IMG/VR virus record: IMGVR_UViG_3300002092_001784
Location: 1-64,000 of that record
DNA length: 64,000 nucleotides
Reading direction: 5' to 3' (one strand)
Source of the DNA: a virus
Lineage: Duplodnaviria; Caudoviricetes
The translations under genes were made by a program, and so were the position numbers. Below are positions 3,832-18,273 of the stretch, piece after piece. Numbering within the stretch: the first letter of the stretch is position 1; every line of letters starts with the position of its first letter. Below the pieces are notes generated by a model. That model worked only from the letters and a program-made list of their open reading frames with translations. It was not told the origin of the DNA and did not search any database.

Positions 3832-4254
3832 ATGAATTATAATTTAGGAAAACTTATAAATGGAAATTTAATTTATTTCCAGCAACCTTCGGAAATACTT
3901 GGAGATGCGACTCAATATGCATTAGATAATGGATATAAAGAAGTAATAACAATTGATGGGAATGGTACAATGTATGAAACTGATAATTCTATCATTATTG
4001 AGAGATTACCAGTTATAAATGTACAACAAACATTTTCCAAATTAGAATTTATAAATCGATTTACCGATACGGAATTAGTAAATATTTATACTGCCTCAAA
4101 AACCATCATTGAAATCGAAATTTGGTTAGATAAATTCAAATTAGCAGAATATATTGATATTACTAGTCCAACAACAGTTTCTGGATTACAATCGTTAGAA
4201 TCCAACGGTCTGATTGGTGAAGGTAGGGCTAATCAAATTATAAATGGTAATTAA
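3832..4254 (+). CDS. Hypothetical fibre-associated protein (possible fibre assembly factor)
   Basis: Clean ORF between fibre genes. The C-terminal LEFINRFTD.E...G.IGEGRANQI pattern resembles small phage tail-associated proteins. Confidence 0.5.
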   Translation: MNYNLGKLINGNLIYFQQPSEILGDATQYALDNGYKEVITIDGNGTMYETDNSIIIERLPVINVQQTFSKLEFINRFTDTELVNIYTASKTIIEIEIWLDKFKLAEYIDITSPTTVSGLQSLESNGLIGEGRANQIINGN

Positions 4255-4303
4255 CTATTTTATAATATTTATATAAGAACTTAATGTATTTTTTCAATAT
4301 AGC

Positions 4304-6430
4304 ATGAGTAGAGCTAACAGTAGTGTAATAGTCATATCGCAAGGCACATCTGGTAGTGGTGGATCGAGCGGAAGCAGTGGTACATCAGCAACCAACGGAA
4401 CAGCAGGTAGTGGTGGTTCATCGGGAACTTCTGGTTCAAGCGGAAGTAGTGGTACTAGCGGAACGCGTGGAACGGCGGGTAGCAGTGGAACATCAGGTTC
4501 ATCGGGAACGTCGGGATCATCCGGAACTTCAGGTTCAAGCGGAACTAGCGGAAGTAGTGGTACATCGGCAACTAACGGAACAGCAGGTAGCGGTGGTTCA
4601 TCCGGAACATCTGCTACCAATGGAACAGCAGGTAGTGGTGGTTCGAGTGGAACAAGCGGAAGCAGTGGTACATCGGCAACCAACGGAACAGCAGGTAGTG
4701 GCGGTTCAAGTGGAACGTCAGGTTCTAGCGGAAGTAGTGGAACTAGCGGAAGTAGCGGTACATCTGCTACCAATGGAACAGCAGGTAGTGGAGGTTCGAG
4801 CGGAACAAGTGGAAGTAGTGGTTCATCGGGAACTTCTGGCTCAAGTGGAACATCGGGCTTATTAACTCTTACTGGAACTACCGATGGAGGTATCATTACG
4901 TTAAATGGTACGGCTCCTAACGCATCGGTCGAAAGTAATCTTACATTTGATGGAAGTAATCTACGTGTAACGGGTTCCGTATATGTAAGTTCATCTACCA
5001 CAACTTTGGGACAGTTTGCTGGCAATCAAAATGGATATGTAGAGTTTTCAGTAAGAAACACAAATAATGGAGTATCCGCATCTGGTGATATTGCAATTTA
5101 TGCTGATACCGGTACTGTATTGACTAACTATATCGATATGGGTATCAATAACTCAGGTTTAGATAGTAGTTATTTTTACGGAGGTACTGATTTCGGAAAT
5201 GCTTTAGACTCTTACTTATATAACGTAGGTGGGAATCTACGAATTGGAAACGCTACATCAACAGCCCCATATTCTCAATCCTTATACTTATTTTCAAATC
5301 CATCTGCTACTCCCGATATTACAATAACCGGTAGTAAGGTAGGTATTCGAAATACTACTCCAAACTATACATTGGATGTAACTGGTAACGGAAACTTTAC
5401 AAACGGACTTTCGGTAACTGGAAGTGTCGTTTTAACAGGATCATTAATATTACCAACTTCTGCCCAAAATCCACCGAATGGAAATACTGGCAGTATTTAC
5501 TACAATAGCACTGATACAAATATCTACCGATACAACGGAACAAATTGGGTATCGGGAGCAGGAAGTTCTGGAACTTCGGGTTCAAGTGGAAGTAGTGGTA
5601 CATCGGGTTCATCGGGAACTTCGGGTTCAAGCGGAAGCAGTGGTACATCTGCTACCAACGGAACAGCCGGTAGTGGTGGTTCAAGCGGAAGTAGTGGTAC
5701 TAGCGGAACGCGTGGAACGGCAGGTAGTAGTGGTTCATCAGGAACATCAGGTTCATCAGGTTCATCAGGAACATCGGGTACATCTACTTTAACCGTAGGT
5801 ACTACTGCAATTGCTTCGGGTGCAACAACAAATATTTTATATGATAATGGTGGTGTATTGGGAGAGTATGCAGCCGTTCCTAATACAAAATTACCTAACG
5901 GTATTATTAATATGAATACGTCAGCTCAATCTCAATTAGTTGTATCGGGTACATCGTATTATATTACAAACTCAAATTTGAACTTACCAAATCCACTACA
6001 AGGTGGTATGGTGGTTGGTACTAGATTTATTTGGAGAGTATGGCTATCTAAAGATGCGGCTGGTACTGGTACGTTTCAAATAAAAATATATCGTGGAACT
6101 ATTGGTAGTACATCGGATACAGCAGATGTTACACAAACAATAGGAACACAAACTGCGGTTGTGGATCATATGGTTGTGGATGTTACATTAATAGTCACAA
6201 CGACAGGAGCTACAGGAGCGTATTATTGGTCTATATGCGCAGTACATGCTGCCGCGAGTGCTGCTGGATTTGGTCTTGCTACTGGTAGTACTGCGTTATT
6301 TAGTGGTACGGTATCAAGTGTGGCATTAAATACCGCTTCTTTGAAATTCGGTCTTGGATTTGTAGCCACTACTGGTACTCCTACTATTGGTATTCCACAA
6401 GTACAGGCGCAAGCATTAAACATTAGTTAA
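4304..6430 (+). CDS. Second Ser/Thr collagen-like fibre protein
   Basis: 708 aa with two G-X-Y tracts, fibre-type beta repeats (VGIRNTTPNYTLDVTG) and a C-terminal globular region. Confidence 0.8.
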   Translation: MSRANSSVIVISQGTSGSGGSSGSSGTSATNGTAGSGGSSGTSGSSGSSGTSGTRGTAGSSGTSGSSGTSGSSGTSGSSGTSGSSGTSATNGTAGSGGSSGTSATNGTAGSGGSSGTSGSSGTSATNGTAGSGGSSGTSGSSGSSGTSGSSGTSATNGTAGSGGSSGTSGSSGSSGTSGSSGTSGLLTLTGTTDGGIITLNGTAPNASVESNLTFDGSNLRVTGSVYVSSSTTTLGQFAGNQNGYVEFSVRNTNNGVSASGDIAIYADTGTVLTNYIDMGINNSGLDSSYFYGGTDFGNALDSYLYNVGGNLRIGNATSTAPYSQSLYLFSNPSATPDITITGSKVGIRNTTPNYTLDVTGNGNFTNGLSVTGSVVLTGSLILPTSAQNPPNGNTGSIYYNSTDTNIYRYNGTNWVSGAGSSGTSGSSGSSGTSGSSGTSGSSGSSGTSATNGTAGSGGSSGSSGTSGTRGTAGSSGSSGTSGSSGSSGTSGTSTLTVGTTAIASGATTNILYDNGGVLGEYAAVPNTKLPNGIINMNTSAQSQLVVSGTSYYITNSNLNLPNPLQGGMVVGTRFIWRVWLSKDAAGTGTFQIKIYRGTIGSTSDTADVTQTIGTQTAVVDHMVVDVTLIVTTTGATGAYYWSICAVHAAASAAGFGLATGSTALFSGTVSSVALNTASLKFGLGFVATTGTPTIGIPQVQAQALNIS
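4340..4857 (+). repeat. Coding collagen-like repeat tract (a second tract lies at about 5555-5785)
   Basis: The same 45-nt SGTSATNGTAGSGGS unit occurs as in the first fibre gene. Confidence 0.9.
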
Positions 6431-6482
6431 TTAAAAAAATAAATATTTTTTTATACCGCTACCATTGTATAGAAAATTAAAG

Positions 6483-6510
6483 AAATAGGTGAGTTTTCAC
6501 CTATTTTTTT
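6483..6510 (+). terminator. Intrinsic terminator
   Basis: AAATAGGTGA-GTTT-TCACCTATTT followed by a T run. Confidence 0.85.
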
Positions 6511-6556
6511 TGTGTTTTGGTGATGATGTATATATTTATATATAAAAACATTATAT

Positions 6557-8488
6557 ATGAAAATAGTTACAAAACCTTGGGGTCGTGAAGAATGGCTCGA
6601 ACTTAATGACCGTTATTGCTACAAACGAATTTATATCAATGCCGGTTATAAAACTTCCTATCAATATCATAATTTTAAGAGAGAAACCAATTACATTATA
6701 TCCGGCGAAGCTGAAATATGGTTGGAAAACGATGAAGGCGTTGTTGAAAAGAAAATAATGAGAAGTGGGGAATATTTTAATGTTTCGCCACCAAAAAAGC
6801 ACAGAGTAATCGCTCTTACCGATATAATTTTACAGGAAGTATCCACACCAGAGGTGGATGACGTGATTCGTATCGAAGATGATACCCAACGATTGGATGG
6901 GAAGATAGAAAATGAGCACAAAACGCCGGCCGTATTGATAGTTGCTGCTGGATTGGGTAATCGTTTGGGTGATTTAACCAAATCAATCAATAAAGCTTTA
7001 TTACCTATTGCCAATAAGGCCATAATTTCTCATATTATTGATAAATTTCCAAAAGAATATGATTTTGTAGTTGCGGTTGGATATAAAGGTGAAGCAGTTA
7101 GAGAATATTGCCAACTTTCGCATCCAAATCATAAATTTACATTCGTAGAAATAGATAATATTGATGGTATTGGTTCTGGGCCGGGATATTCGGCATTGCA
7201 ATGTAAGGAACATTTACAACGACCGTTCTATATTACAACATGCGATTGTTTAATTACATCAGAACTACCTTATTTGGCAGGAAATTGGTTAGGTGTATAT
7301 CCAACATCATATCCCGAAAAATATTCAACTGTAAAGGTTGATAAAGATAAAAATGTAATTCAGTTTACCAATAAGAATATAAATGGATTTGATTTGGCTT
7401 TTGTTGGGTTGGCCGGTATATCTGATTATGAAACATTTTGGGCAATATTAGAAAATAATGGTTCTGATGGTGAATTGGTATCCGCATTTATGCAACCATA
7501 TGGGTATTTACCAAATATGAAAGTAAAAGAAGTAAAATGGCTAGATACTGGTAATTTGGATGATTTATCGGTGGCTAAGGCTCATTTTCAAGACAAACCG
7601 TTATCGTTACAAAAAGATAGTAATGAAATCACATATAAAGATGGTAATCGGTTTATAAAATTCTGTCCTGATTTTAATATTTTGAGAAATAGAATAGAAA
7701 GGGCACACTTTCTTAAAAATTTGATTCCAAAGGGTATTACACATACAGATAATTTTATATCATATAATTGGGAAGCGGGTACTACATTATATGAATTAAA
7801 TTCATATGAATTATATACTAAATTTTTAGATAGGTTACATAAAATTATAACTAAAGAATCGACATATCAACACGCAGATTTTGAATATCTTAAATACTTT
7901 TACATTGATAAAACTGATAGTCGTATAAAGTTATTTGTTGATAAATATGGTGACAGGTATATGAAAGATTCGCATAATATTTGTGGAACTGTTTATGAAT
8001 CAATGGATTTATTATTATCTAAAATAGATTATAGTGTTTTATCTAAAACATATTTTTATAGTTTATTTCATGGAGACCTTCAGTTTGATAATATTATATA
8101 TGATGTAAAAACTGATAAATTTACTTATATAGATTGGAGAGAATCATTTGCAGGAAATACTGATGCTGGTGATGTTTATTATGATTTGGCTAAACTATAC
8201 GGTGGAACTATTTTTGCCTATAATGAAATGAAGGATGAAACTAATATTCATTTTGTTGAAGGTTCATATGTTATAGAATACCAATATAACCCAAGTCCAA
8301 AATTAGTAGAATTTAGAAACTTTTATGAAAAATGGATAGTTGATAACGGGTTTGATTTAGATAGGGTAAAATTGATAACTGCACTGATTTATATCAATAT
8401 GTCGCCATTGCATGATGAAAAATTCGGAAAGATGTTATGGTTCAAAGCAATAGAAATGTTAACACAATATATAGATGGAAATAAATAA
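6557..8488 (+). CDS. Three-domain fusion: cupin sugar isomerase + nucleotidyltransferase + APH/choline-kinase-like phosphotransferase
   Basis: Cupin KPWG...YQYH..K.ET...H; NTP-transferase AAGLGNRL..LTKSINKALLP; kinase FHGDLQFDNI...IDWRE...YYDLAKL. Confidence 0.85.
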   Translation: MKIVTKPWGREEWLELNDRYCYKRIYINAGYKTSYQYHNFKRETNYIISGEAEIWLENDEGVVEKKIMRSGEYFNVSPPKKHRVIALTDIILQEVSTPEVDDVIRIEDDTQRLDGKIENEHKTPAVLIVAAGLGNRLGDLTKSINKALLPIANKAIISHIIDKFPKEYDFVVAVGYKGEAVREYCQLSHPNHKFTFVEIDNIDGIGSGPGYSALQCKEHLQRPFYITTCDCLITSELPYLAGNWLGVYPTSYPEKYSTVKVDKDKNVIQFTNKNINGFDLAFVGLAGISDYETFWAILENNGSDGELVSAFMQPYGYLPNMKVKEVKWLDTGNLDDLSVAKAHFQDKPLSLQKDSNEITYKDGNRFIKFCPDFNILRNRIERAHFLKNLIPKGITHTDNFISYNWEAGTTLYELNSYELYTKFLDRLHKIITKESTYQHADFEYLKYFYIDKTDSRIKLFVDKYGDRYMKDSHNICGTVYESMDLLLSKIDYSVLSKTYFYSLFHGDLQFDNIIYDVKTDKFTYIDWRESFAGNTDAGDVYYDLAKLYGGTIFAYNEMKDETNIHFVEGSYVIEYQYNPSPKLVEFRNFYEKWIVDNGFDLDRVKLITALIYINMSPLHDEKFGKMLWFKAIEMLTQYIDGNK

Positions 8489-9092
8489 AGATACACAAAT
8501 TTACGGTTCATTTTCAACTACACCCGGCAACAATGGGTGTATGTTTTTTAATTCAGCCTTTCAGAAGTATGGAATCAATGCTATCTATAAATCATTTTAT
8601 GGTGATAATGCTGAAAAGGTTGTAAACGCAGCCAAAACATTGGGATTTGGTGGATTTGCATTAAGTATGCCACTAAAGATAGAAGTAATGCAGTATTTAG
8701 ATGAAATTGATACTGCTGTACAACAAATTGGAGCAGTGAATACTGTTATACATCACAATGGTTTATTACTGGGATATAATACTGATTGGATTGGAGTACG
8801 TGATTATTTTATGGATGCTATTGATAACTTAACAATTTTAGGAAATGGTGGTTTCAGTAAAGCCGTACAATATGCTTGTATTACTAAAGGTATACCATTT
8901 ACGGTTATAACAAGAAAAGATTGGGCATTGGTATATGATTTAGATGGTTATGTATTTAATGCAACGCCTATTGATATAGTAACCAAAGGAATGTTAATAG
9001 ATGGTAGACCATTTACAGAACAGGGTAAAATTATAGCTAATTTACAAGCTAAAGCACAATTCAAACTTTATACTGGATTCGATTATGAGTGA
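8475..9092 (+). CDS. Shikimate-dehydrogenase-like (SdhL-type) NAD(P)-dependent oxidoreductase, shortened
   Basis: INKDTQ N-terminus, SMPLK, GAVNTV, GYNTD and ILGNGGFSKAV motifs. At 205 aa it is shorter than typical family members. Confidence 0.8.
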   Translation: MEINKDTQIYGSFSTTPGNNGCMFFNSAFQKYGINAIYKSFYGDNAEKVVNAAKTLGFGGFALSMPLKIEVMQYLDEIDTAVQQIGAVNTVIHHNGLLLGYNTDWIGVRDYFMDAIDNLTILGNGGFSKAVQYACITKGIPFTVITRKDWALVYDLDGYVFNATPIDIVTKGMLIDGRPFTEQGKIIANLQAKAQFKLYTGFDYE

Positions 9093-10053
9093 TATTAAGT
9101 ATTTTATATGTCCAATGTCTAAAAATGTAGTAGATGCAGTTTTGGAACTAAATTCTGATAAAATAGGATTATTACCAACACGTCGTCAGATTGATTATGA
9201 TGGTGGGTATGTCAATGGTTGGGATACGGAAGGTTTTTATGAATATGTTCGTTCTAATTATAATAATAGTGATATAGTATTAGAACGTGATCATTCTGGA
9301 CCTAATCAAGGAACTGAACCCGATGATGGTAAGACATCGCATAAAGTGGATTCTACTTATTTTGATATTATCCATATAGACCCATGGAAAGTTTATAGTG
9401 AAAAATACAGAGGAACGAATGAAACAATACGAACTATCCAATATTTGTATAAAATGAATCCGTTGTTAAAATTTGAAGTGGGAACTGAACAAGATATTAC
9501 TGCATTTAGCAATGGAGAACTTCATTCATTTTTGGGATATTTACGAAACAATTTGGCTACTAATGAATGGGATGCCATTGAATATGTTGTAATACAGTCA
9601 GGTGTTTCTTTGGATTTAATAAATAAACGAAATAAAGGTGTATTTGACAGTGACAGATTTCAACGAATGATAAATACTACAAATCGATTTGGTAAAAAGG
9701 CAAAAGAGCATAATGGTGATTATTTATCGGAAGAAGATTATCGATATAGATTTTCTCACGGGTTATCAACTATAAACATTGGACCGGAATTTGCTCAGTT
9801 TGAAACTTCTATTTATTTGGATAATATGACAGAAAATGAAATTGATAATTTTTATAGTGTTTGTCTTTTATCAAATAGGTGGAAACGGTGGGTAGCTAAT
9901 GATGTGTTAGAACTTACCAAAATACAACTTATAGAGGTATGCGGACATTATAATTATTTAGAATATGATTATAGATACGGACTACCAAAAATAGATAATA
10001 TTATTAAACAAAAAATAACAGAAAAACTTAAAACATTACTAACGTATGTCTAA
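9085..10053 (+). CDS. GatZ/KbaZ-like TIM-barrel protein (tagatose-phosphate epimerase/aldolase-related)
   Basis: RRQID..GGY, RDH.GP, HIDP, EVGTE, VVIQSG, KEHNGDY and NIGPEF motifs. Confidence 0.75.
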   Translation: MSDIKYFICPMSKNVVDAVLELNSDKIGLLPTRRQIDYDGGYVNGWDTEGFYEYVRSNYNNSDIVLERDHSGPNQGTEPDDGKTSHKVDSTYFDIIHIDPWKVYSEKYRGTNETIRTIQYLYKMNPLLKFEVGTEQDITAFSNGELHSFLGYLRNNLATNEWDAIEYVVIQSGVSLDLINKRNKGVFDSDRFQRMINTTNRFGKKAKEHNGDYLSEEDYRYRFSHGLSTINIGPEFAQFETSIYLDNMTENEIDNFYSVCLLSNRWKRWVANDVLELTKIQLIEVCGHYNYLEYDYRYGLPKIDNIIKQKITEKLKTLLTYV

Positions 10054-10402
10054 AATTATAGCATTTGATTTAGATGGAACTTTGTGTGACAGGCCTGACG
10101 ATGTAGAACATTTGGGGCCGGATAAATATTTACATTGTATACCAATTTGGCACATGATAGATATTGTTAACGAATTGTATGATAGAGATAATATCATTTA
10201 TATCTATACAGCACGTGGTATGGGGCAATTTGGCGGAAACCAAAGTAAAGTACATATTAAATTGTATGAATTAACTTTGAATAGTTTGCGTAAGTGGGGA
10301 GTGAAGCATCATGGGTTGGTAATGGGAAAATTACATTATGATATGCTTGTAGATGATAAATGTATGAATGTGGATGATATAGACAAAATAAAACAACTTT
10401 AA
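10046..10402 (+). CDS. Capless HAD phosphatase (capsule-biosynthesis-phosphatase type)
   Basis: FDLDGTL, YTARG and GK..YD..VDDK motifs. Confidence 0.85.
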   Translation: MSKIIAFDLDGTLCDRPDDVEHLGPDKYLHCIPIWHMIDIVNELYDRDNIIYIYTARGMGQFGGNQSKVHIKLYELTLNSLRKWGVKHHGLVMGKLHYDMLVDDKCMNVDDIDKIKQL

Positions 10403-10414
10403 TTTAGTATTCTA

Positions 10415-10423
10415 ATATTTATA
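10415..10423 (+). promoter_or_regulatory. Representative copy of putative phage late-promoter motif ATATTTAT(A/T/G)
   Basis: Also at 4265, 6532, 14295, 16802, 16871, 17468, 18502, 28651, 30635, 34202, 37493, 38014, 42867, 45555, 58813 and 61743, each intergenic and upstream of a start codon. Confidence 0.7.
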
Positions 10424-10446
10424 AGAGTATATACAATTATAAATTT

Positions 10447-11643
10447 ATGGAAGCACTAATATATCCCGGTTCATCTTCTTTTTATCCCGGTATGACACCA
10501 TTTGGTATCTATGATGAGGAATATTTATTCCAATCAGATGCGCCAAAATTGGCAATATGGTGTGCTAGACGATTGGGATACCCTATTCAAAATGTGGAAT
10601 TGAGAGATGAAAATTTTTATGCATGTTTTGAAGAAGCCGTTTCAGAATATAGCTCACAAGTAAATCAATGGAATATTCGTAATAATTTAGACTCTCTAAA
10701 GGGTATGCCAGTTGGTACTAATTATACTCAAAAATTAGTGCAAGGTTCTAACTTACCATATTTGATTGGTATATCTGATGCATATGGTACATTGGTCGGT
10801 GTTGGGGGTAATACAAATATAAAATCAGGAAGTATACAATTAGTTCCGGGTCAACAAACTTATGACTTGGATGAGTTATTTGCTAATGTAAGTGAAAGTG
10901 GAAATCGTATTGATGTGACACGAGTATTTTATGAAGTAACACCAGCTATTACCCGTTTCTTTGATCCATATTCAGTAAGTGGACAAGGTACGTTAAATTT
11001 AATTGATGAGTTTGGATTTGGTTCATTTTCACCCGCAGCACAATTTGTATTAATGCCATTATATGAAGACCTTCTTCGTATTCAAGCTATTGAATTAAAC
11101 GATACAATCAGAAAATCAGCAAGTACTTTTAATATTGTTAATAATAAACTAACTATATTTCCAATACCAACCGCACAAAATATGTCAAATTTTAAGAATT
11201 TGTGGTTTGAATATTTTGTTAGAAACGAATTTATAGAAAATTCAACAAATGTTACACCTAATGTAGTATCTGATTATTCTAACATAGGGTATGATTTTAT
11301 GCATTACCATCACATTAATGATGTTGGAAAGCAGTGGATACGAAAATATACATTGGCATTGGTAAAGGAAATATTAGGTGCAATCCGAGAAAAATATTCA
11401 ACTGTTCCAATTCCGGGTTCTGAAATTTCATTAGATGGTGCGGCATTAAGAGCAGAAGCACAGACTGAAAAGGATAACCTAATGACTCAACTCAGAGAAA
11501 CATTGGAAGAATTGAGTAGAACAAAACAATTTGAAAACAGATGGAACGAAGCAAATCAACAACAAGAAATGTTGAGAAAAGTTCCATTGGCAATTTATAT
11601 CGGAGAATTGGCAGCATTAATAACATTAACATCATTTTTATAA
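10447..11643 (+). CDS. Neck/head-tail adaptor protein (T4 gp13-like)
   Basis: RRLGYPIQNVEL N-terminus and W.RKYTLAL.KE.LG..R.KY..VP.PG.EI.LDG C-terminus; first gene of the neck-tail block. Confidence 0.7.
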   Translation: MEALIYPGSSSFYPGMTPFGIYDEEYLFQSDAPKLAIWCARRLGYPIQNVELRDENFYACFEEAVSEYSSQVNQWNIRNNLDSLKGMPVGTNYTQKLVQGSNLPYLIGISDAYGTLVGVGGNTNIKSGSIQLVPGQQTYDLDELFANVSESGNRIDVTRVFYEVTPAITRFFDPYSVSGQGTLNLIDEFGFGSFSPAAQFVLMPLYEDLLRIQAIELNDTIRKSASTFNIVNNKLTIFPIPTAQNMSNFKNLWFEYFVRNEFIENSTNVTPNVVSDYSNIGYDFMHYHHINDVGKQWIRKYTLALVKEILGAIREKYSTVPIPGSEISLDGAALRAEAQTEKDNLMTQLRETLEELSRTKQFENRWNEANQQQEMLRKVPLAIYIGELAALITLTSFL

Positions 11644-11644
11644 T

Positions 11645-12100
11645 ATGCCTCGATTTGCATTAGACCGTGACATTTCATTTTTTGAAGGAATATCAAGAGA
11701 ATTGGTAGAAGTGGTAGTGGAAACCGCAGTTATTCTTTATAAATTAATTATAGATGACACTACTGTTAATTTATATGGTGAATCTACTTCCAAAACCTAT
11801 TATCAAGGTGTAGGTTGTAATGCTATGATTGATCGTGATGAAACTACTACCCAATATGAGGGATTTGGTTCTGATACTACACAAAATGTTGAATTTAGGT
11901 TCAATCGATTTATTTTGGAAGAAAAAGGATTTTACCCAGAGATAGGAGATATTGTATTTCATAATAATGCATATTTTGAAATTGATAATGTTAGAGAAGA
12001 CCAATTAGTGGGTGGACAAGTTGCTAACAGATTCTCTATAATTTGTTCTACATTTATGACAAGAAGAACAACCATTCAAACCGATGAACGTATATTATAA
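11645..12100 (+). CDS. Head-closure/neck protein (T4 gp14-like)
   Basis: LYGES and PEIGDIV...YFEIDNV motifs; follows the gp13-like gene. Confidence 0.65.
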   Translation: MPRFALDRDISFFEGISRELVEVVVETAVILYKLIIDDTTVNLYGESTSKTYYQGVGCNAMIDRDETTTQYEGFGSDTTQNVEFRFNRFILEEKGFYPEIGDIVFHNNAYFEIDNVREDQLVGGQVANRFSIICSTFMTRRTTIQTDERIL

Positions 12101-17502: not shown

Positions 17503-18273
17503 ATGGCTGACCAAAAATTTGATTTTCCTACTGAAATTATTGAGCTACCTTCCCGTGGATTGGTTTACCCTGAGGGGCATCCACTTAGAAAAGGTACTTG
17601 TGAAATTAAGTATATGACTGCACGTGAAGAAGATATTCTTGCATCACAAAGTTTAATTAAAAAGGGTATCGTTTTAGATAAATTATTTGAATCCGTAGTT
17701 GTCGAAAAAGGATTAAATATAAACGACGTATTTATTGGAGATAAAAACGCTATTCTACTTGGAACTCGAGTACTGGGTTATGGTGCGGGATATGAAGTAG
17801 AGATAACCGATCCATTTACTCAAGAAAAACAAACCGTAAACATTGATTTATCTAAAGTACAAACAAAGGATATAGATTATGATTTACTTAATGAAAAAAA
17901 TGTATATACATTCACACTACCAAAAAGTGGTAAAGTAATTGAGTTCAAATTACTAACACATAAAGATGAAACTGATATATCCAAAGATATTCAATCATTG
18001 GACAGGGTTAGTAAAAACGCAGTAACTGCCGCAGATGTAACAACTCGTTTCCGTTATATGATTCTTTCGGTTGATGGAAATACAGATAGAGCATTTATTA
18101 ATAAATGGATTCAGAATCAATTCTTAGCACAGGATACAAAAGCATTCCGTAAGTATGTAAAGGAGATTTCACCGGATTTGGATTTACGATTTACGTTTGT
18201 TTCTGAAATTACGGGCGAATCGGAGGCGCTTGATATCCCGTTTGGGATTAACTTTTTTTACCCTTCCAACTGA
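17503..18273 (+). CDS. Baseplate hub/tail assembly chaperone (T4 gp26-like)
   Basis: IELPSRGLVY, IKYMTAREEDIL and a C-terminal INFF; lies between tube and tape measure. Confidence 0.75.
   Translation: MADQKFDFPTEIIELPSRGLVYPEGHPLRKGTCEIKYMTAREEDILASQSLIKKGIVLDKLFESVVVEKGLNINDVFIGDKNAILLGTRVLGYGAGYEVEITDPFTQEKQTVNIDLSKVQTKDIDYDLLNEKNVYTFTLPKSGKVIEFKLLTHKDETDISKDIQSLDRVSKNAVTAADVTTRFRYMILSVDGNTDRAFINKWIQNQFLAQDTKAFRKYVKEISPDLDLRFTFVSEITGESEALDIPFGINFFYPSN

What the first reader, a model, noticed from the sequence alone, without database searches (positions are those of the whole stretch)
6557..10402. Self-contained pathway for an unusual activated sugar or polyol between the fibre and neck genes
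Seen: four overlapping genes between a terminator plus late motif and the next late motif: cupin-nucleotidyltransferase-kinase fusion, SdhL-like dehydrogenase, GatZ/KbaZ-like barrel, HAD phosphatase. Known: kinase, phosphatase and nucleotidyltransferase is the logic of NDP-sugar synthesis; the SdhL substrate is not established. Inference: isomerise/epimerise, reduce, phosphorylate and activate steps make a non-standard NDP-sugar, polyol or cyclitol. A shikimate-dehydrogenase-like enzyme in such a pathway is unexpected.
Basis: partly seen in the sequence, partly recalled or inferred. Interest (0 to 1): 0.8.

Follow-up and report, generated by a model that had tools for sequence, protein, structure and literature searches.

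The report
Phage rare-sugar activation gene cassette
A large freshwater phage carries a compact four-gene set, shared with thousands of uncultured phages and ultra-small bacteria and archaea, that most likely builds an unusual activated sugar for coating the virus or its host, but the sugar itself is still unknown.

Summary
Four overlapping + strand genes (6557-10402) lie between a terminator plus promoter-like motif and the next copy of that motif. They encode:
- a fusion of PMI-like cupin, nucleotidyltransferase (NTase) and APH-type kinase;
- a shortened SdhL-type dehydrogenase;
- a GatZ/KbaZ-like zinc barrel;
- a small HAD phosphatase.

The set is co-conserved. In 82 phage loci, the barrel travels with NTase-kinase in 81 and with the cupin in 77. 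All 46 loci with a fused cupin carry the short SdhL, against 2 of 36 others. The HAD is present in 37.

CPR bacteria, DPANN archaea and some marine bacteria hold the same module. There a classical SDR often replaces SdhL, and a KdsC-like HAD replaces the small one. So the redox and phosphatase steps look integral.

Phage copies sit among glycosyltransferases and sugar-tailoring genes.

Most likely mechanism, inferred and not shown:
1. a ketose phosphate is C4-epimerised or aldol-remodelled;
2. it is isomerised to an aldose;
3. the phosphate is moved to C1 by phosphatase plus kinase, with no mutase;
4. the sugar is nucleotide-activated.

The position of the redox step is unknown. The product is unidentified; an NDP-talose-type hexose, a heptose or a CDP-polyol remain open. 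I class this as an uncharacterised variant of nucleotide-sugar synthesis.

The parts
6479..6510 (+). Intrinsic terminator closing the upstream fibre gene
   Evidence: 14-bp stem, 4-nt loop and T-run found by the scan; sequence read.
6532..6540 (+). Promoter-like motif ATATTTATA, 17 nt before the cassette's start codon
   Evidence: 18 copies in the window against 5.6 expected. 31 of 45 genome copies lie 0-40 nt before ORF starts, including structural genes.
6557..6901 (+). Domain 1 of the fusion: type II phosphomannose-isomerase-like cupin (residues 1-115)
   Evidence: PF01050 at 29.9 bits against cut-off 23.6; TIGR01479 C-terminal PMI part. Q36, H38, E43 and H82 plus the C-terminal DDVIRxxDxxxR are invariant in 20 homologues. 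It is a separate ~115-aa gene in about 31 other phage loci.
6929..7567 (+). Domain 2 of the fusion: sugar/alcohol-phosphate nucleotidyltransferase (residues ~125-337)
   Evidence: PF00483 at 30.5 bits against cut-off 21.2. The family profile hits LicC 1jyk (4e-14), RmlA-like enzymes, HddC 5xhw, PntC and IPCT. The GxGxR loop and K146 are conserved.
7568..8488 (+). Domain 3 of the fusion: APH/choline-kinase-fold small-molecule kinase (residues 338-643)
   Evidence: AF2 model pLDDT 91. Foldseek hits: APH(3')-Ia, ethanolamine/choline kinases, MTR kinase, maltokinase; LicA homologues and AmgK in Swiss-Prot models. H505-G-D507...N512 and D526 are invariant.
8475..9092 (+). Shortened SdhL-type shikimate-dehydrogenase-family oxidoreductase (205 aa)
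   Evidence: PF08501 at 57 bits; 1npy HI0607 at 6.9e-26; PRK12550 at 4e-34 but below its cut-off. K68, N89, D104, the GxGG motif, R147 and Q191/Q195 are kept, with three deletions in the Rossmann domain relative to 270-aa cellular relatives. At least 1359 clusters of ~200-216 aa exist, labelled viral where known.
9085..10053 (+). GatZ/KbaZ-like class II aldolase-fold zinc barrel (322 aa), probably a ketose-phosphate 4-epimerase or aldolase
   Evidence: AF2 pLDDT 94. Foldseek 2fiq E 9e-12, TM 0.75, then class II FBP/TBP aldolases. hhalign to GatZ/KbaZ-annotated proteins gives E 1e-30. D69-H70, E135 and H209 align with the Asp87/His88/Glu171/His257 site of E. coli GatZ and are invariant.
10046..10402 (+). 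Small HAD-superfamily phosphatase (118 aa)
   Evidence: DLDGT motif at residues 8-12. PDB 9iqw 'capsule biosynthesis protein' 1.8e-11 and 1xpj. Weak TIGR01689 and TIGR01681 hits; phrog_1238 at 7e-24. Present in 37 of 82 phage loci.
10415..10423 (+). Next copy of the ATATTTATA motif, 24 nt before the neck gene; marks the end of the cassette unit

Best explanation
The four genes form one transcription unit, probably late, that makes a nucleotide-activated rare sugar from a central ketose phosphate. It uses no phosphomutase.

Proposed order (every chemical step is inferred):
1. The GatZ-like zinc barrel epimerises C4 of a ketose 6-phosphate or 7-phosphate by retro-aldol/aldol chemistry, for example fructose-6-P to tagatose-6-P. 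Alternatively it builds the ketose phosphate by aldol addition.
2. The PMI-like cupin isomerises that ketose phosphate to the aldose phosphate with manno-type C2, for example talose-6-P.
3. The HAD phosphatase and the APH-type kinase together move the phosphate to the anomeric carbon. The order is either phosphatase then 1-kinase, as in MupP/AmgK/MurU, or 1-kinase then distal phosphatase, as in HddA/GmhB.
4. The NTase domain couples the sugar-1-phosphate to an NMP.
5. The short SdhL-type enzyme carries out one NAD(P)-dependent oxidation, reduction or epimerisation on an intermediate. Its place in the order is unknown.

The product would feed the phage's own glycosyltransferases (cluster at 64-78 kb) to glycosylate virion parts such as the neighbouring fibre, or the infected cell's surface.
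For: Shown:
- All six catalytic units have intact signature residues.
- The barrel is a GatZ/KbaZ relative by fold and profile, and it keeps the Zn/Asp site. GatZ/KbaZ are fructose-6-P/tagatose-6-P 4-epimerases (PMC11907403).
- The cupin keeps the Q/H/E/H set and passes the PF01050 cut-off.
- Co-conservation in 82 phage loci: barrel 82, NTase-kinase 81, cupin 77. Barrel-NTase-kinase fusions occur in L049, L054 and L060.
- SdhL is present in 46 of 46 fused-cupin loci against 2 of 36 others.
- The same module occurs in CPR, DPANN, Pelagibacter, Prochlorococcus and gammaproteobacterial contigs. There it has an SDR, an SdhL or an unknown 274-aa protein, plus a KdsC-like HAD.
- The NTase profile is nearest to LicC, RmlA and HddC; MurU appears only among weaker NCBIfam hits. 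The kinase fold is nearest to LicA, AmgK, APH and maltokinase.
- Neighbours in phage loci: GT-A-like DUF7796 (42 loci), SDR epimerases (52), RmlC-like, DegT, GT1/GT2, methyl- and carbamoyl-transferases.
- The phage's own genome has five or more glycosyltransferase-like genes at 64-78 kb. One of them, a GT2, sits behind the same motif.

From established knowledge: MupP/AmgK/MurU and GmhA/HddA/GmhB/HddC are known mutase-free routes to NDP-sugars.
Against: - No biochemical or expression data exist. No RNA run holds the locus.
- The kinase is not specifically close to any characterised kinase (TM 0.4-0.5). The best NTase and kinase matches, LicC and LicA, act on a phospho-alcohol, not a sugar.
- The barrel differs from E. 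coli GatZ at two substrate-contact positions (E44 becomes L30, K279 becomes N231), so its substrate may not be fructose-6-P.
- The role of the dehydrogenase is unexplained by the scheme.
- The HAD is missing from 45 of 82 phage loci, and the SdhL from 34.
- In this genome the glycosyltransferases lie about 54 kb away, not next to the cassette.
- A marine Flavobacteriaceae clade keeps the barrel alone, without NTase-kinase, so the barrel can work outside the pathway.
Confidence: 0.5

Rival explanations
1. CDP-polyol or CDP-ketose donor. The barrel supplies a ketose phosphate such as tagatose-6-P. The dehydrogenase reduces it, either before or after cytidylylation, to a hexitol or other polyol phosphate. 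The LicA-like kinase and LicC-like NTase activate a phospho-alcohol. The product is transferred as a phosphodiester-linked polyol, as with CDP-ribitol, CDP-glycerol or CDP-6-D-glucitol.
For: - The NTase family profile's best solved match is LicC (4e-14), and IPCT, PntC and TarI-type enzymes also score.
- The kinase model's best Swiss-Prot matches are LicA homologues.
- A dehydrogenase is integral to the module.
- There is precedent for cytidylylating fructose-6-P and then reducing it (PMC10918830).
Against: - A PMI-like isomerase is unnecessary for reducing a ketose to a polyol, yet it is in 77 of 82 loci.
- No LicD-, TagF- or CDP-alcohol-transferase family turned up among the frequent neighbours examined. 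The commonest neighbour looks like a GT-A glycosyltransferase.
- A phosphatase has no clear role in this scheme.
Confidence: 0.2
2. A non-orthologous NDP-heptose, or higher-sugar, pathway. The cupin replaces GmhA on sedoheptulose-7-P or on its C4 epimer made by the barrel. The APH-type kinase replaces HddA/HldE, the HAD replaces GmhB, and the NTase is HddC-like.
For: - HddC is among the NTase hits (NF049965 at 2e-7; 5xhw and 6jq8 at about 1e-8).
- The cellular modules use a KdsC-like phosphatase, a family that removes the distal phosphate of 8- and 9-carbon sugars.
- The genome has no SIS-type GmhA although it carries an HldE-like adenylyltransferase domain at 229.7 kb.
- The step logic is identical to the known GDP-heptose route (established knowledge).
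Against: - Nothing distinguishes a C7 from a C6 substrate.
- The dehydrogenase is again unexplained.
- HldE-like genes are not among the frequent neighbours of the cassette in other phages.
Confidence: 0.12
3. The activated sugar is made as in the best explanation but is used to hypermodify phage DNA bases rather than proteins or envelope glycans.
For: - Phage glycosyltransferases that decorate DNA with diverse glycans are known (cited within PMC12619734).
- An earlier unchecked note places a candidate DNA-modification set with a GT-B enzyme at 46-56 kb of this window.
Against: - The cassette shares its upstream motif with the fibre, neck and baseplate genes, not with obvious replication genes.
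- In other phages it lies beside large virion-type proteins and terminase.
- CPR and DPANN cells, which do not glycosylate DNA, keep the same module.
Confidence: 0.08
4. The genes are separate auxiliary metabolic genes that redirect host sugar-phosphate or shikimate metabolism, and do not form one pathway.
For: - The barrel occurs alone in a marine Flavobacteriaceae clade, beside sdhCAB.
- The automatic annotation of the 205-aa family is 'shikimate dehydrogenase'.
Against: - The genes are in tight translational overlap, domain fusions exist between them, and they are co-conserved across phages, bacteria and archaea.
- An NTase fused to a kinase has no role in central catabolism.
- The SdhL-type enzyme has a changed substrate motif and a cut-down cofactor domain.
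Confidence: 0.04

Closest known systems
MupP / AmgK / MurU route to UDP-MurNAc (Pseudomonas peptidoglycan recycling)
   Same: A HAD sugar-6-phosphatase, an APH-fold anomeric kinase and a small NTase together convert a sugar-6-P to an NDP-sugar without a mutase. AmgK is among the structural matches of the kinase, and MurU models are among the NTase hits.
   Different: There is no orthology: TM is about 0.5, and E-values are 5e-5 or weaker. Here the kinase and NTase are fused, and an epimerase/aldolase-type barrel, an isomerase and a dehydrogenase come before them. The substrate is not MurNAc.
GDP-D-glycero-alpha-D-manno-heptose pathway (GmhA, HddA, GmhB, HddC)
   Same: The order of chemistry is the same: ketose-phosphate isomerase, 1-kinase, HAD distal phosphatase, NTase. 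HddC-like similarity of the NTase was seen.
   Different: The isomerase is a cupin rather than SIS, and the kinase is APH-fold rather than GHMP. The HAD is of another subfamily. A GatZ-like barrel and a dehydrogenase are extra.
Type II PMI-GMP enzymes (ManC/AlgA/XanB) of GDP-mannose synthesis
   Same: A PMI cupin and an NTase sit on one polypeptide. The cupin matches the C-terminal PMI part of TIGR01479 and PF01050 and keeps the metal ligands.
   Different: The domain order is reversed. A kinase is fused on, and a kinase/phosphatase pair stands where phosphomannomutase would act. The NTase is LicC/RmlA/HddC-like rather than ManC-like.
GatZ/KbaZ fructose-6-P/tagatose-6-P 4-epimerases (E. coli GatZ, A. 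tumefaciens and S. meliloti enzymes)
   Same: The fold is the same (2fiq, 3txv) and so is the Asp-His / Glu / His zinc site. There is strong profile similarity to GatZ/KbaZ-annotated proteins of Klebsiella and Sinorhizobium plasmids.
   Different: It is about 100 residues shorter and falls below the Pfam and NCBIfam cut-offs. Two substrate-contact residues differ. It lies in a biosynthetic NTase context rather than a catabolic galactitol or GalNAc context.
SdhL (HI0607) subgroup of shikimate dehydrogenases, and the SDH-family 5-ketofructose reductase (7cok)
   Same: HI0607 is the best solved match, and the INKDT start and the Lys/Asp pair are shared. 7cok is also matched (8.9e-12), which shows that the family can act on keto-sugars.
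   Different: The phage form lacks about 60 residues of the cofactor domain. The natural substrate of SdhL is unknown. In cellular modules a classical SDR takes its place.
CDP-6-D-glucitol pathway of Campylobacter jejuni HS:5 (PMC10918830)
   Same: An NTase plus an NAD(P)H reductase act on a ketose-6-phosphate skeleton to make an unusual activated donor.
   Different: That pathway has two enzymes only, with no kinase, phosphatase, cupin or aldolase-fold enzyme. Its reductase is of another family.

Membership tests
GatZ/KbaZ-like (PF08013, class II aldolase superfamily) | Class II aldolase-type TIM barrel fold close to solved GatZ-type structures | tested here: met
   AF2 pLDDT 94. Foldseek 2fiq E 9e-12 with TMq 0.75, and 3txv at 2e-11.
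GatZ/KbaZ-like (PF08013, class II aldolase superfamily) | Catalytic Asp and Zn ligands His/Glu/His (Asp87, His88, Glu171, His257 in E. coli GatZ, per PMC11907403) | tested here: met
   D69-H70, E135 and H209 align to them and are invariant in 21 homologues. The alignment to E. coli GatZ itself is weak (E 0.005), but the register is supported by the E 1e-30 alignments.
GatZ/KbaZ-like (PF08013, class II aldolase superfamily) | Score above the curated Pfam or NCBIfam family cut-offs | tested here: not met
   PF08013 scores 19.6 bits against 26.7; TIGR02810 scores 15.1 against 568.8. It is a distant subfamily, not an equivalog.
GatZ/KbaZ-like (PF08013, class II aldolase superfamily) | GatZ-specific substrate-contact residues Glu44 and Lys279 | tested here: not met
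   They are replaced by L30 and the invariant N231.
GatZ/KbaZ-like (PF08013, class II aldolase superfamily) | Fructose-6-P/tagatose-6-P 4-epimerase activity | not testable with these tools
   Needs an enzyme assay.
Shikimate dehydrogenase family, SdhL subgroup | N-terminal substrate-binding domain with the catalytic Lys/Asp pair | tested here: met
   PF08501 at 57 bits against 27. K68 and D104 are invariant. Best PDB match is 1npy at 6.9e-26.
Shikimate dehydrogenase family, SdhL subgroup | Complete NAD(P)-binding Rossmann domain (PF01488) and full length of about 270 aa | tested here: not met
   No PF01488 hit. Three deletions relative to the 270-aa relatives, although GxGG and R147 remain. 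The PRK12550 score of 118 is below the cut-off of 306.
Shikimate dehydrogenase family, SdhL subgroup | Activity on shikimate or quinate | not testable with these tools
   Needs an assay. The pathway context argues against it.
Type II phosphomannose isomerase cupin (PF01050) | Pfam cut-off passed and the Gln/His/Glu/His metal site present | tested here: met
   29.9 bits against 23.6. Q36, H38, E43 and H82 are invariant.
Sugar/alcohol-phosphate nucleotidyltransferase (PF00483) | Pfam cut-off passed and the N-terminal GxGxR(L) loop present | tested here: met
   30.5 bits against 21.2. AAGLGNRLG at residues 130-138; G132, G134 and R136 are nearly invariant. No equivalog model is reached, so the nucleotide and the substrate are unassigned.
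APH / choline-kinase-like small-molecule kinases (PF01636) | Bilobal kinase fold with the HxD...N catalytic loop and the Mg-binding Asp | tested here: met
   Foldseek probability 1.0 to APH(3')-Ia, ethanolamine/choline kinase, MTR kinase and maltokinase. H505/D507/N512/D526 are invariant.
APH / choline-kinase-like small-molecule kinases (PF01636) | Pfam cut-off, or a close relationship to a kinase of known substrate | tested here: not met
   19.4 bits against 23.2. The profile finds no PDB chain at E below 0.1. TM is only 0.4-0.55.
HAD phosphatase superfamily | Motif I DxDxT and the downstream Thr, Lys and Asp-Asp motifs | tested here: met
   FDLDGTL, YTARG and GK...VDDK read directly from the sequence. 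9iqw at 1.8e-11.
HAD phosphatase superfamily | Membership of a characterised subfamily (EcbF/BcbF TIGR01689, GmhB, KdsC) | tested here: not met
   TIGR01689 scores 20.9 bits against 162. No GmhB or KdsC model was hit.
Mutase-free NDP-sugar routes (MupP/AmgK/MurU; HddA/GmhB/HddC) | Co-occurrence of phosphatase, anomeric-type kinase and NTase in one conserved unit | tested here: met
Mutase-free NDP-sugar routes (MupP/AmgK/MurU; HddA/GmhB/HddC) | Phosphorylation at the anomeric carbon and formation of an NDP-sugar | not testable with these tools
   Needs reconstitution with LC-MS/NMR.

The most novel reading that the evidence does not exclude
The cassette is the phage copy of a previously unrecognised, very widespread route to a rare nucleotide sugar, for example an NDP-D-talose-type hexose or a C4-epimeric heptose. 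Aquatic phages, CPR bacteria and DPANN archaea share it. It would give the first physiological job to SdhL-type dehydrogenases and to the short 'KEHNGDY' branch of GatZ proteins. The phage would use it late in infection to glycosylate its own fibres or capsid.
Probability: 0.3. Interest if true: 0.75.

Novelty: new variant of a known kind. Interest (0 to 1): 0.6.

Why it matters
If the scheme is right, it defines a new enzyme combination for making an activated sugar. More than a thousand sequence clusters were found for each family searched: the barrel, the short SdhL and the cellular NTase-kinase. All of them are annotated 'hypothetical', 'NTP transferase' or 'shikimate dehydrogenase'.

It would do three things:
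- Assign a natural role to SdhL, whose substrate has never been established, and to a short GatZ branch.
- Point to a surface glycan shared by ultra-small symbiotic bacteria and archaea and by the phages of aquatic bacteria.
- Add a likely case of a phage making its own rare sugar on the same apparent schedule as its virion genes, which bears on how phages shield or target their fibres.

The pathway can be tested directly with four recombinant proteins.

Tried and rejected
- DNA search of the cassette against cultured phages found nothing. A protein search found only one marine single-cell virus record and distant Listeria records. The nearest cultured relatives, Microcystis phage Mel-JY01 and the Flavobacterium 'immuto' phages, were not among those hits. 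In Mel-JY01 the annotated genes just upstream of the neck gene are phoH and capsid, with no sugar cassette.
- A single-sequence locus search in viral contigs failed. An alignment-based search was needed.
- Idea: the lone flavobacterial barrel replaces fructose-bisphosphate aldolase. Rejected, because all three genomes tested have a canonical class II aldolase. They also lack the NTase-kinase.
- Neither sequence search nor fold search singled out a kinase of known substrate for the kinase domain.
- A literature hit for 'GatZ' in a Campylobacter HS:19 paper was an author's name. Searches for DUF7796, 9IQW and BcbF/EcbF gave nothing useful. No paper describing this gene set was found.
- PHROG labels 'cysteine dioxygenase' for the cupin and 'phosphoheptose isomerase' for the HAD were judged to be mis-transferred names, given the Pfam and motif evidence.
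- The cyclitol reading was considered and given low weight, because no sugar-phosphate cyclase is in or near the module.
- No RNA-seq run holds the locus, so expression timing could not be checked.

Full report
**What is there**

The window is the first 64 kb of a 266,153-bp, 34% GC, single-contig virus record that is found in freshwater metagenomes. It is a distant T4-like myovirus:
- a gp15-like sheath stabiliser at 12100;
- a baseplate hub at 17503;
- a neck gene at 10447, 50% identical to that of Microcystis phage Mel-JY01 and 40% identical to Flavobacterium phages.

Between a collagen-repeat fibre gene (4304-6430) and that neck gene lie four + strand ORFs overlapping by 14, 8 and 8 nt. 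A stem-loop terminator (6479-6510) closes the fibre gene.

The 9-mer ATATTTATA stands 17 nt before the first ORF and again 24 nt before the neck gene. It is three-fold enriched in the window (18 against 5.6). In the whole genome, 31 of 45 + strand copies lie within 40 nt of an ORF start, including fibre, neck, baseplate hub, homing endonucleases and a glycosyltransferase. 'Late' remains an inference.

**The proteins**

*ORF1 (643 aa)* is a three-domain fusion.
- Residues 1-115 pass the Pfam cut-off for the type II phosphomannose-isomerase cupin. Across 20 homologues they keep Q36, H38, E43 and H82 and a C-terminal DDVIRxxDxxxR block.
- Residues ~125-337 are a short nucleotidyltransferase (NTase). 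A family profile hits LicC best (4e-14), then RmlA-like enzymes, HddC, PntC and inositol-phosphate cytidylyltransferase. No NCBIfam equivalog is approached, so the nucleotide and the substrate are open.
- Residues 338-643 fold with confidence (pLDDT 91) into an APH/choline-kinase-type kinase with an invariant HGD...N loop and Mg-binding Asp. The structural neighbours are LicA homologues, ketoamine kinases, AmgK, maltokinase, MTR kinase and APH(3'). All lie at TM 0.4-0.55, so none assigns a substrate.

*ORF2 (205 aa)* is an SdhL-type member of the shikimate dehydrogenase family.
- It matches HI0607 at 6.9e-26 and starts with the same INKDT motif.
- It keeps the Lys/Asp pair, GxGG and Arg147.
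- It has three deletions that remove about 60 residues of the cofactor domain.
- The short form is not an accident. At least 1359 sequence clusters of 200-216 aa exist, and they are labelled viral where the taxon is known.

*ORF3 (322 aa)* scores only weakly against the GatZ/KbaZ models. Stronger evidence places it in that superfamily:
- The model (pLDDT 94) matches solved GatZ-type structures (2fiq, TM 0.75), then class II aldolases.
- Profile-profile comparison with GatZ/KbaZ-annotated proteins gives E 1e-30.
- The Asp-His, Glu and His that form the proposed zinc site of E. coli GatZ, shown to be a fructose-6-P/tagatose-6-P 4-epimerase (PMC11907403), align with invariant D69-H70, E135 and H209.
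- Two substrate-contact residues differ.

*ORF4 (118 aa)* is a minimal HAD phosphatase with all four motifs. It resembles a solved 'capsule biosynthesis protein' (9iqw, 1.8e-11).

**Is it a pathway? Co-conservation**

The barrel family has more than 1600 clusters, all unnamed. I analysed 82 phage loci.

| Component | Loci of 82 |
|---|---|
| Barrel | 82 |
| NTase-kinase | 81 |
| Cupin (fused in 46, otherwise a separate ~115-aa gene) | 77 |
| Short SdhL | 48 |
| Small HAD | 37 |

- Most absences of the core genes are at contig ends.
- In three loci the barrel itself is fused to NTase-kinase.
- The SdhL gene is present in 46 of 46 loci with the fused cupin and in 2 of 36 others, so there are two cassette types.

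Cellular genomes also hold relatives.
- CPR bacteria, DPANN archaea, and single Pelagibacteraceae, Prochlorococcus and gammaproteobacterial contigs have barrel + NTase-kinase + cupin.
- These modules also carry a dehydrogenase: a full-length SdhL-type enzyme (4 loci), a classical short-chain dehydrogenase (9-11 loci) or an unknown 274-aa protein (4 loci).
- A KdsC-like HAD phosphatase accompanies them in 19 loci.

Replacement of both the dehydrogenase and the phosphatase by unrelated enzymes of the same class is good evidence that a redox step and a dephosphorylation step belong to the pathway. The cellular NTase-kinase is 63-79% identical between CPR and DPANN lineages and bears only generic names.

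**Context**

In other phages the cassette sits among:
- extended SDR epimerase/dehydratases (52 loci);
- a ~258-aa DUF7796-type protein directly upstream (42 loci), whose Atlas model resembles GT-A glycosyltransferases and a Campylobacter capsule protein;
- RmlC-like, DegT, GT1, GT2, TylF-like, carbamoyltransferase and split TPP enzymes.

This genome has homologues of several of these at 64.0-78.4 kb, just past the window. That cluster holds one GT1, three GT2, a DUF7796-like gene, a UDP-GlcNAc 2-epimerase, a HAD-NTase fusion and an SDR. One GT2 sits behind the same ATATTTATA motif.

The closest cultured relative has phoH and capsid genes just upstream of the neck gene, where this phage has the cassette. 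Protein searches with the barrel did not hit these relatives. The cassette therefore looks like a lineage-specific insertion.

**Mechanism**

Shown:
- domain identities;
- intact catalytic motifs;
- co-conservation;
- the glycan-gene context.

Inferred: the chemistry. The most economical scheme uses known activities of each family.
1. A GatZ-type retro-aldol/aldol step acts on a ketose phosphate.
2. A PMI-type step isomerises the ketose phosphate to the aldose phosphate.
3. A phosphatase/kinase pair places the phosphate on C1 without a mutase. MupP/AmgK/MurU and HddA/GmhB are precedents.
4. The NTase activates the sugar-1-phosphate.

Fructose-6-P would then give an NDP-talose-type sugar. Sedoheptulose-7-P would give a heptose. 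The dehydrogenase's position is not explained, which is the main weakness. An SDH-family 5-ketofructose reductase (7cok, matched at 8.9e-12) shows that the family can handle keto-sugars.

The leading rival is a CDP-polyol or CDP-ketose donor. The LicC and LicA resemblance favours it, and so does the CDP-6-glucitol precedent. The near-universal isomerase argues against it, as does the absence of phospho-alcohol transferase families among the neighbours examined.

Use of the product for DNA modification is possible but less likely, given the structural-gene motif and the module's presence in cells.

**Side result on the barrel**

A clade of uncultured marine Flavobacteriaceae keeps a 41-46% identical barrel alone, next to sdhCAB.
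- It does not replace their class II aldolase.
- Their genomes lack the NTase-kinase.
- In a quick maximum-likelihood tree, this clade (SH-aLRT 97) nests inside the phage sequences, while the CPR/DPANN module forms a separate clade (SH-aLRT 100). The careful tree search did not finish, and the root is at the midpoint only.

**Verdict**

This is a real, strongly conserved and uncharacterised nucleotide-sugar-type module. It is a new enzyme combination for a known kind of pathway, and its product is unknown.

Noticed in passing
G000:C1:64008-78390 (locus L135), just beyond the window's end: A second glycan cluster of about 18 co-directional ORFs. It holds one GT1, three GT2, a DUF7796-like GT-A-type protein, a UDP-GlcNAc 2-epimerase, a DegT-like fragment, a HAD(beta-PGM-type)-NTase fusion and an SDR. 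The GT2 at 65842 sits behind the ATATTTATA motif. These are likely users of the cassette's product.
   Followed up: partly
L083-L097, L100, L103, L129 (uncultured marine Flavobacteriaceae chromosomes): A lone barrel gene, 41-46% identical to the phage one, sits in a conserved housekeeping region next to sdhCAB. There is no NTase-kinase anywhere in three genomes tested, and a normal class II aldolase is present. In a quick tree the clade nests within the phage sequences, which suggests a phage-derived gene fixed in a host lineage.
   Followed up: partly
L049:7959-10583, L054:373-2910, L060:7926-10541: Single ORFs of about 850-875 aa fuse the GatZ-like barrel to the NTase-kinase. This is a Rosetta-stone link between the two.
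   Followed up: no
L133:4016-7492 (Sinorhizobium plasmid pSS05631a): A GatZ-like 'tagatose-6-phosphate kinase', a PMI-like cupin, a DegT aminotransferase and a HAD-IA hydrolase lie in a row next to a DeoR regulator. The barrel-cupin-phosphatase trio is here combined with an aminotransferase instead of a dehydrogenase.
   Followed up: no
whole genome G000, + strand: ATATTTATA occurs 45 times, and 31 copies lie 0-40 nt before an ORF start. It precedes structural genes, several homing endonucleases and a 3477-aa ORF at 215536. It is a candidate late promoter of this phage group.
   Followed up: partly
G000:C1:229699-229983 and 230928-231341: Two cytidylyltransferase-like (HldE C-terminal type) domains are present, yet the genome has no SIS-type GmhA.
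   Followed up: partly
P0241-P0360: The cellular NTase-kinase is 63-79% identical across CPR bacteria (Falkowbacteria, Komeilibacteria, Yanofskybacteria) and DPANN archaea (Woese-, Pace-, Nanoarchaeota, Diapherotrites). That is unusually high for such distant hosts and suggests recent exchange.
   Followed up: no
window 4001-6000 against 6001-12000: The collagen-like fibre gene region is 41% GC, while the cassette and neck region is 30-33% GC. The fibre gene carries four collagen-repeat stretches.
   Followed up: no
L132:2335-6223 (Klebsiella plasmid pCAV1016-90): The GatZ/KbaZ-annotated protein most like the phage family, sharing the KEHNGDYL motif, lies between a fructose-type PTS and a transaldolase. 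This hints that the sub-branch acts on ketose phosphates in catabolism too.
   Followed up: no
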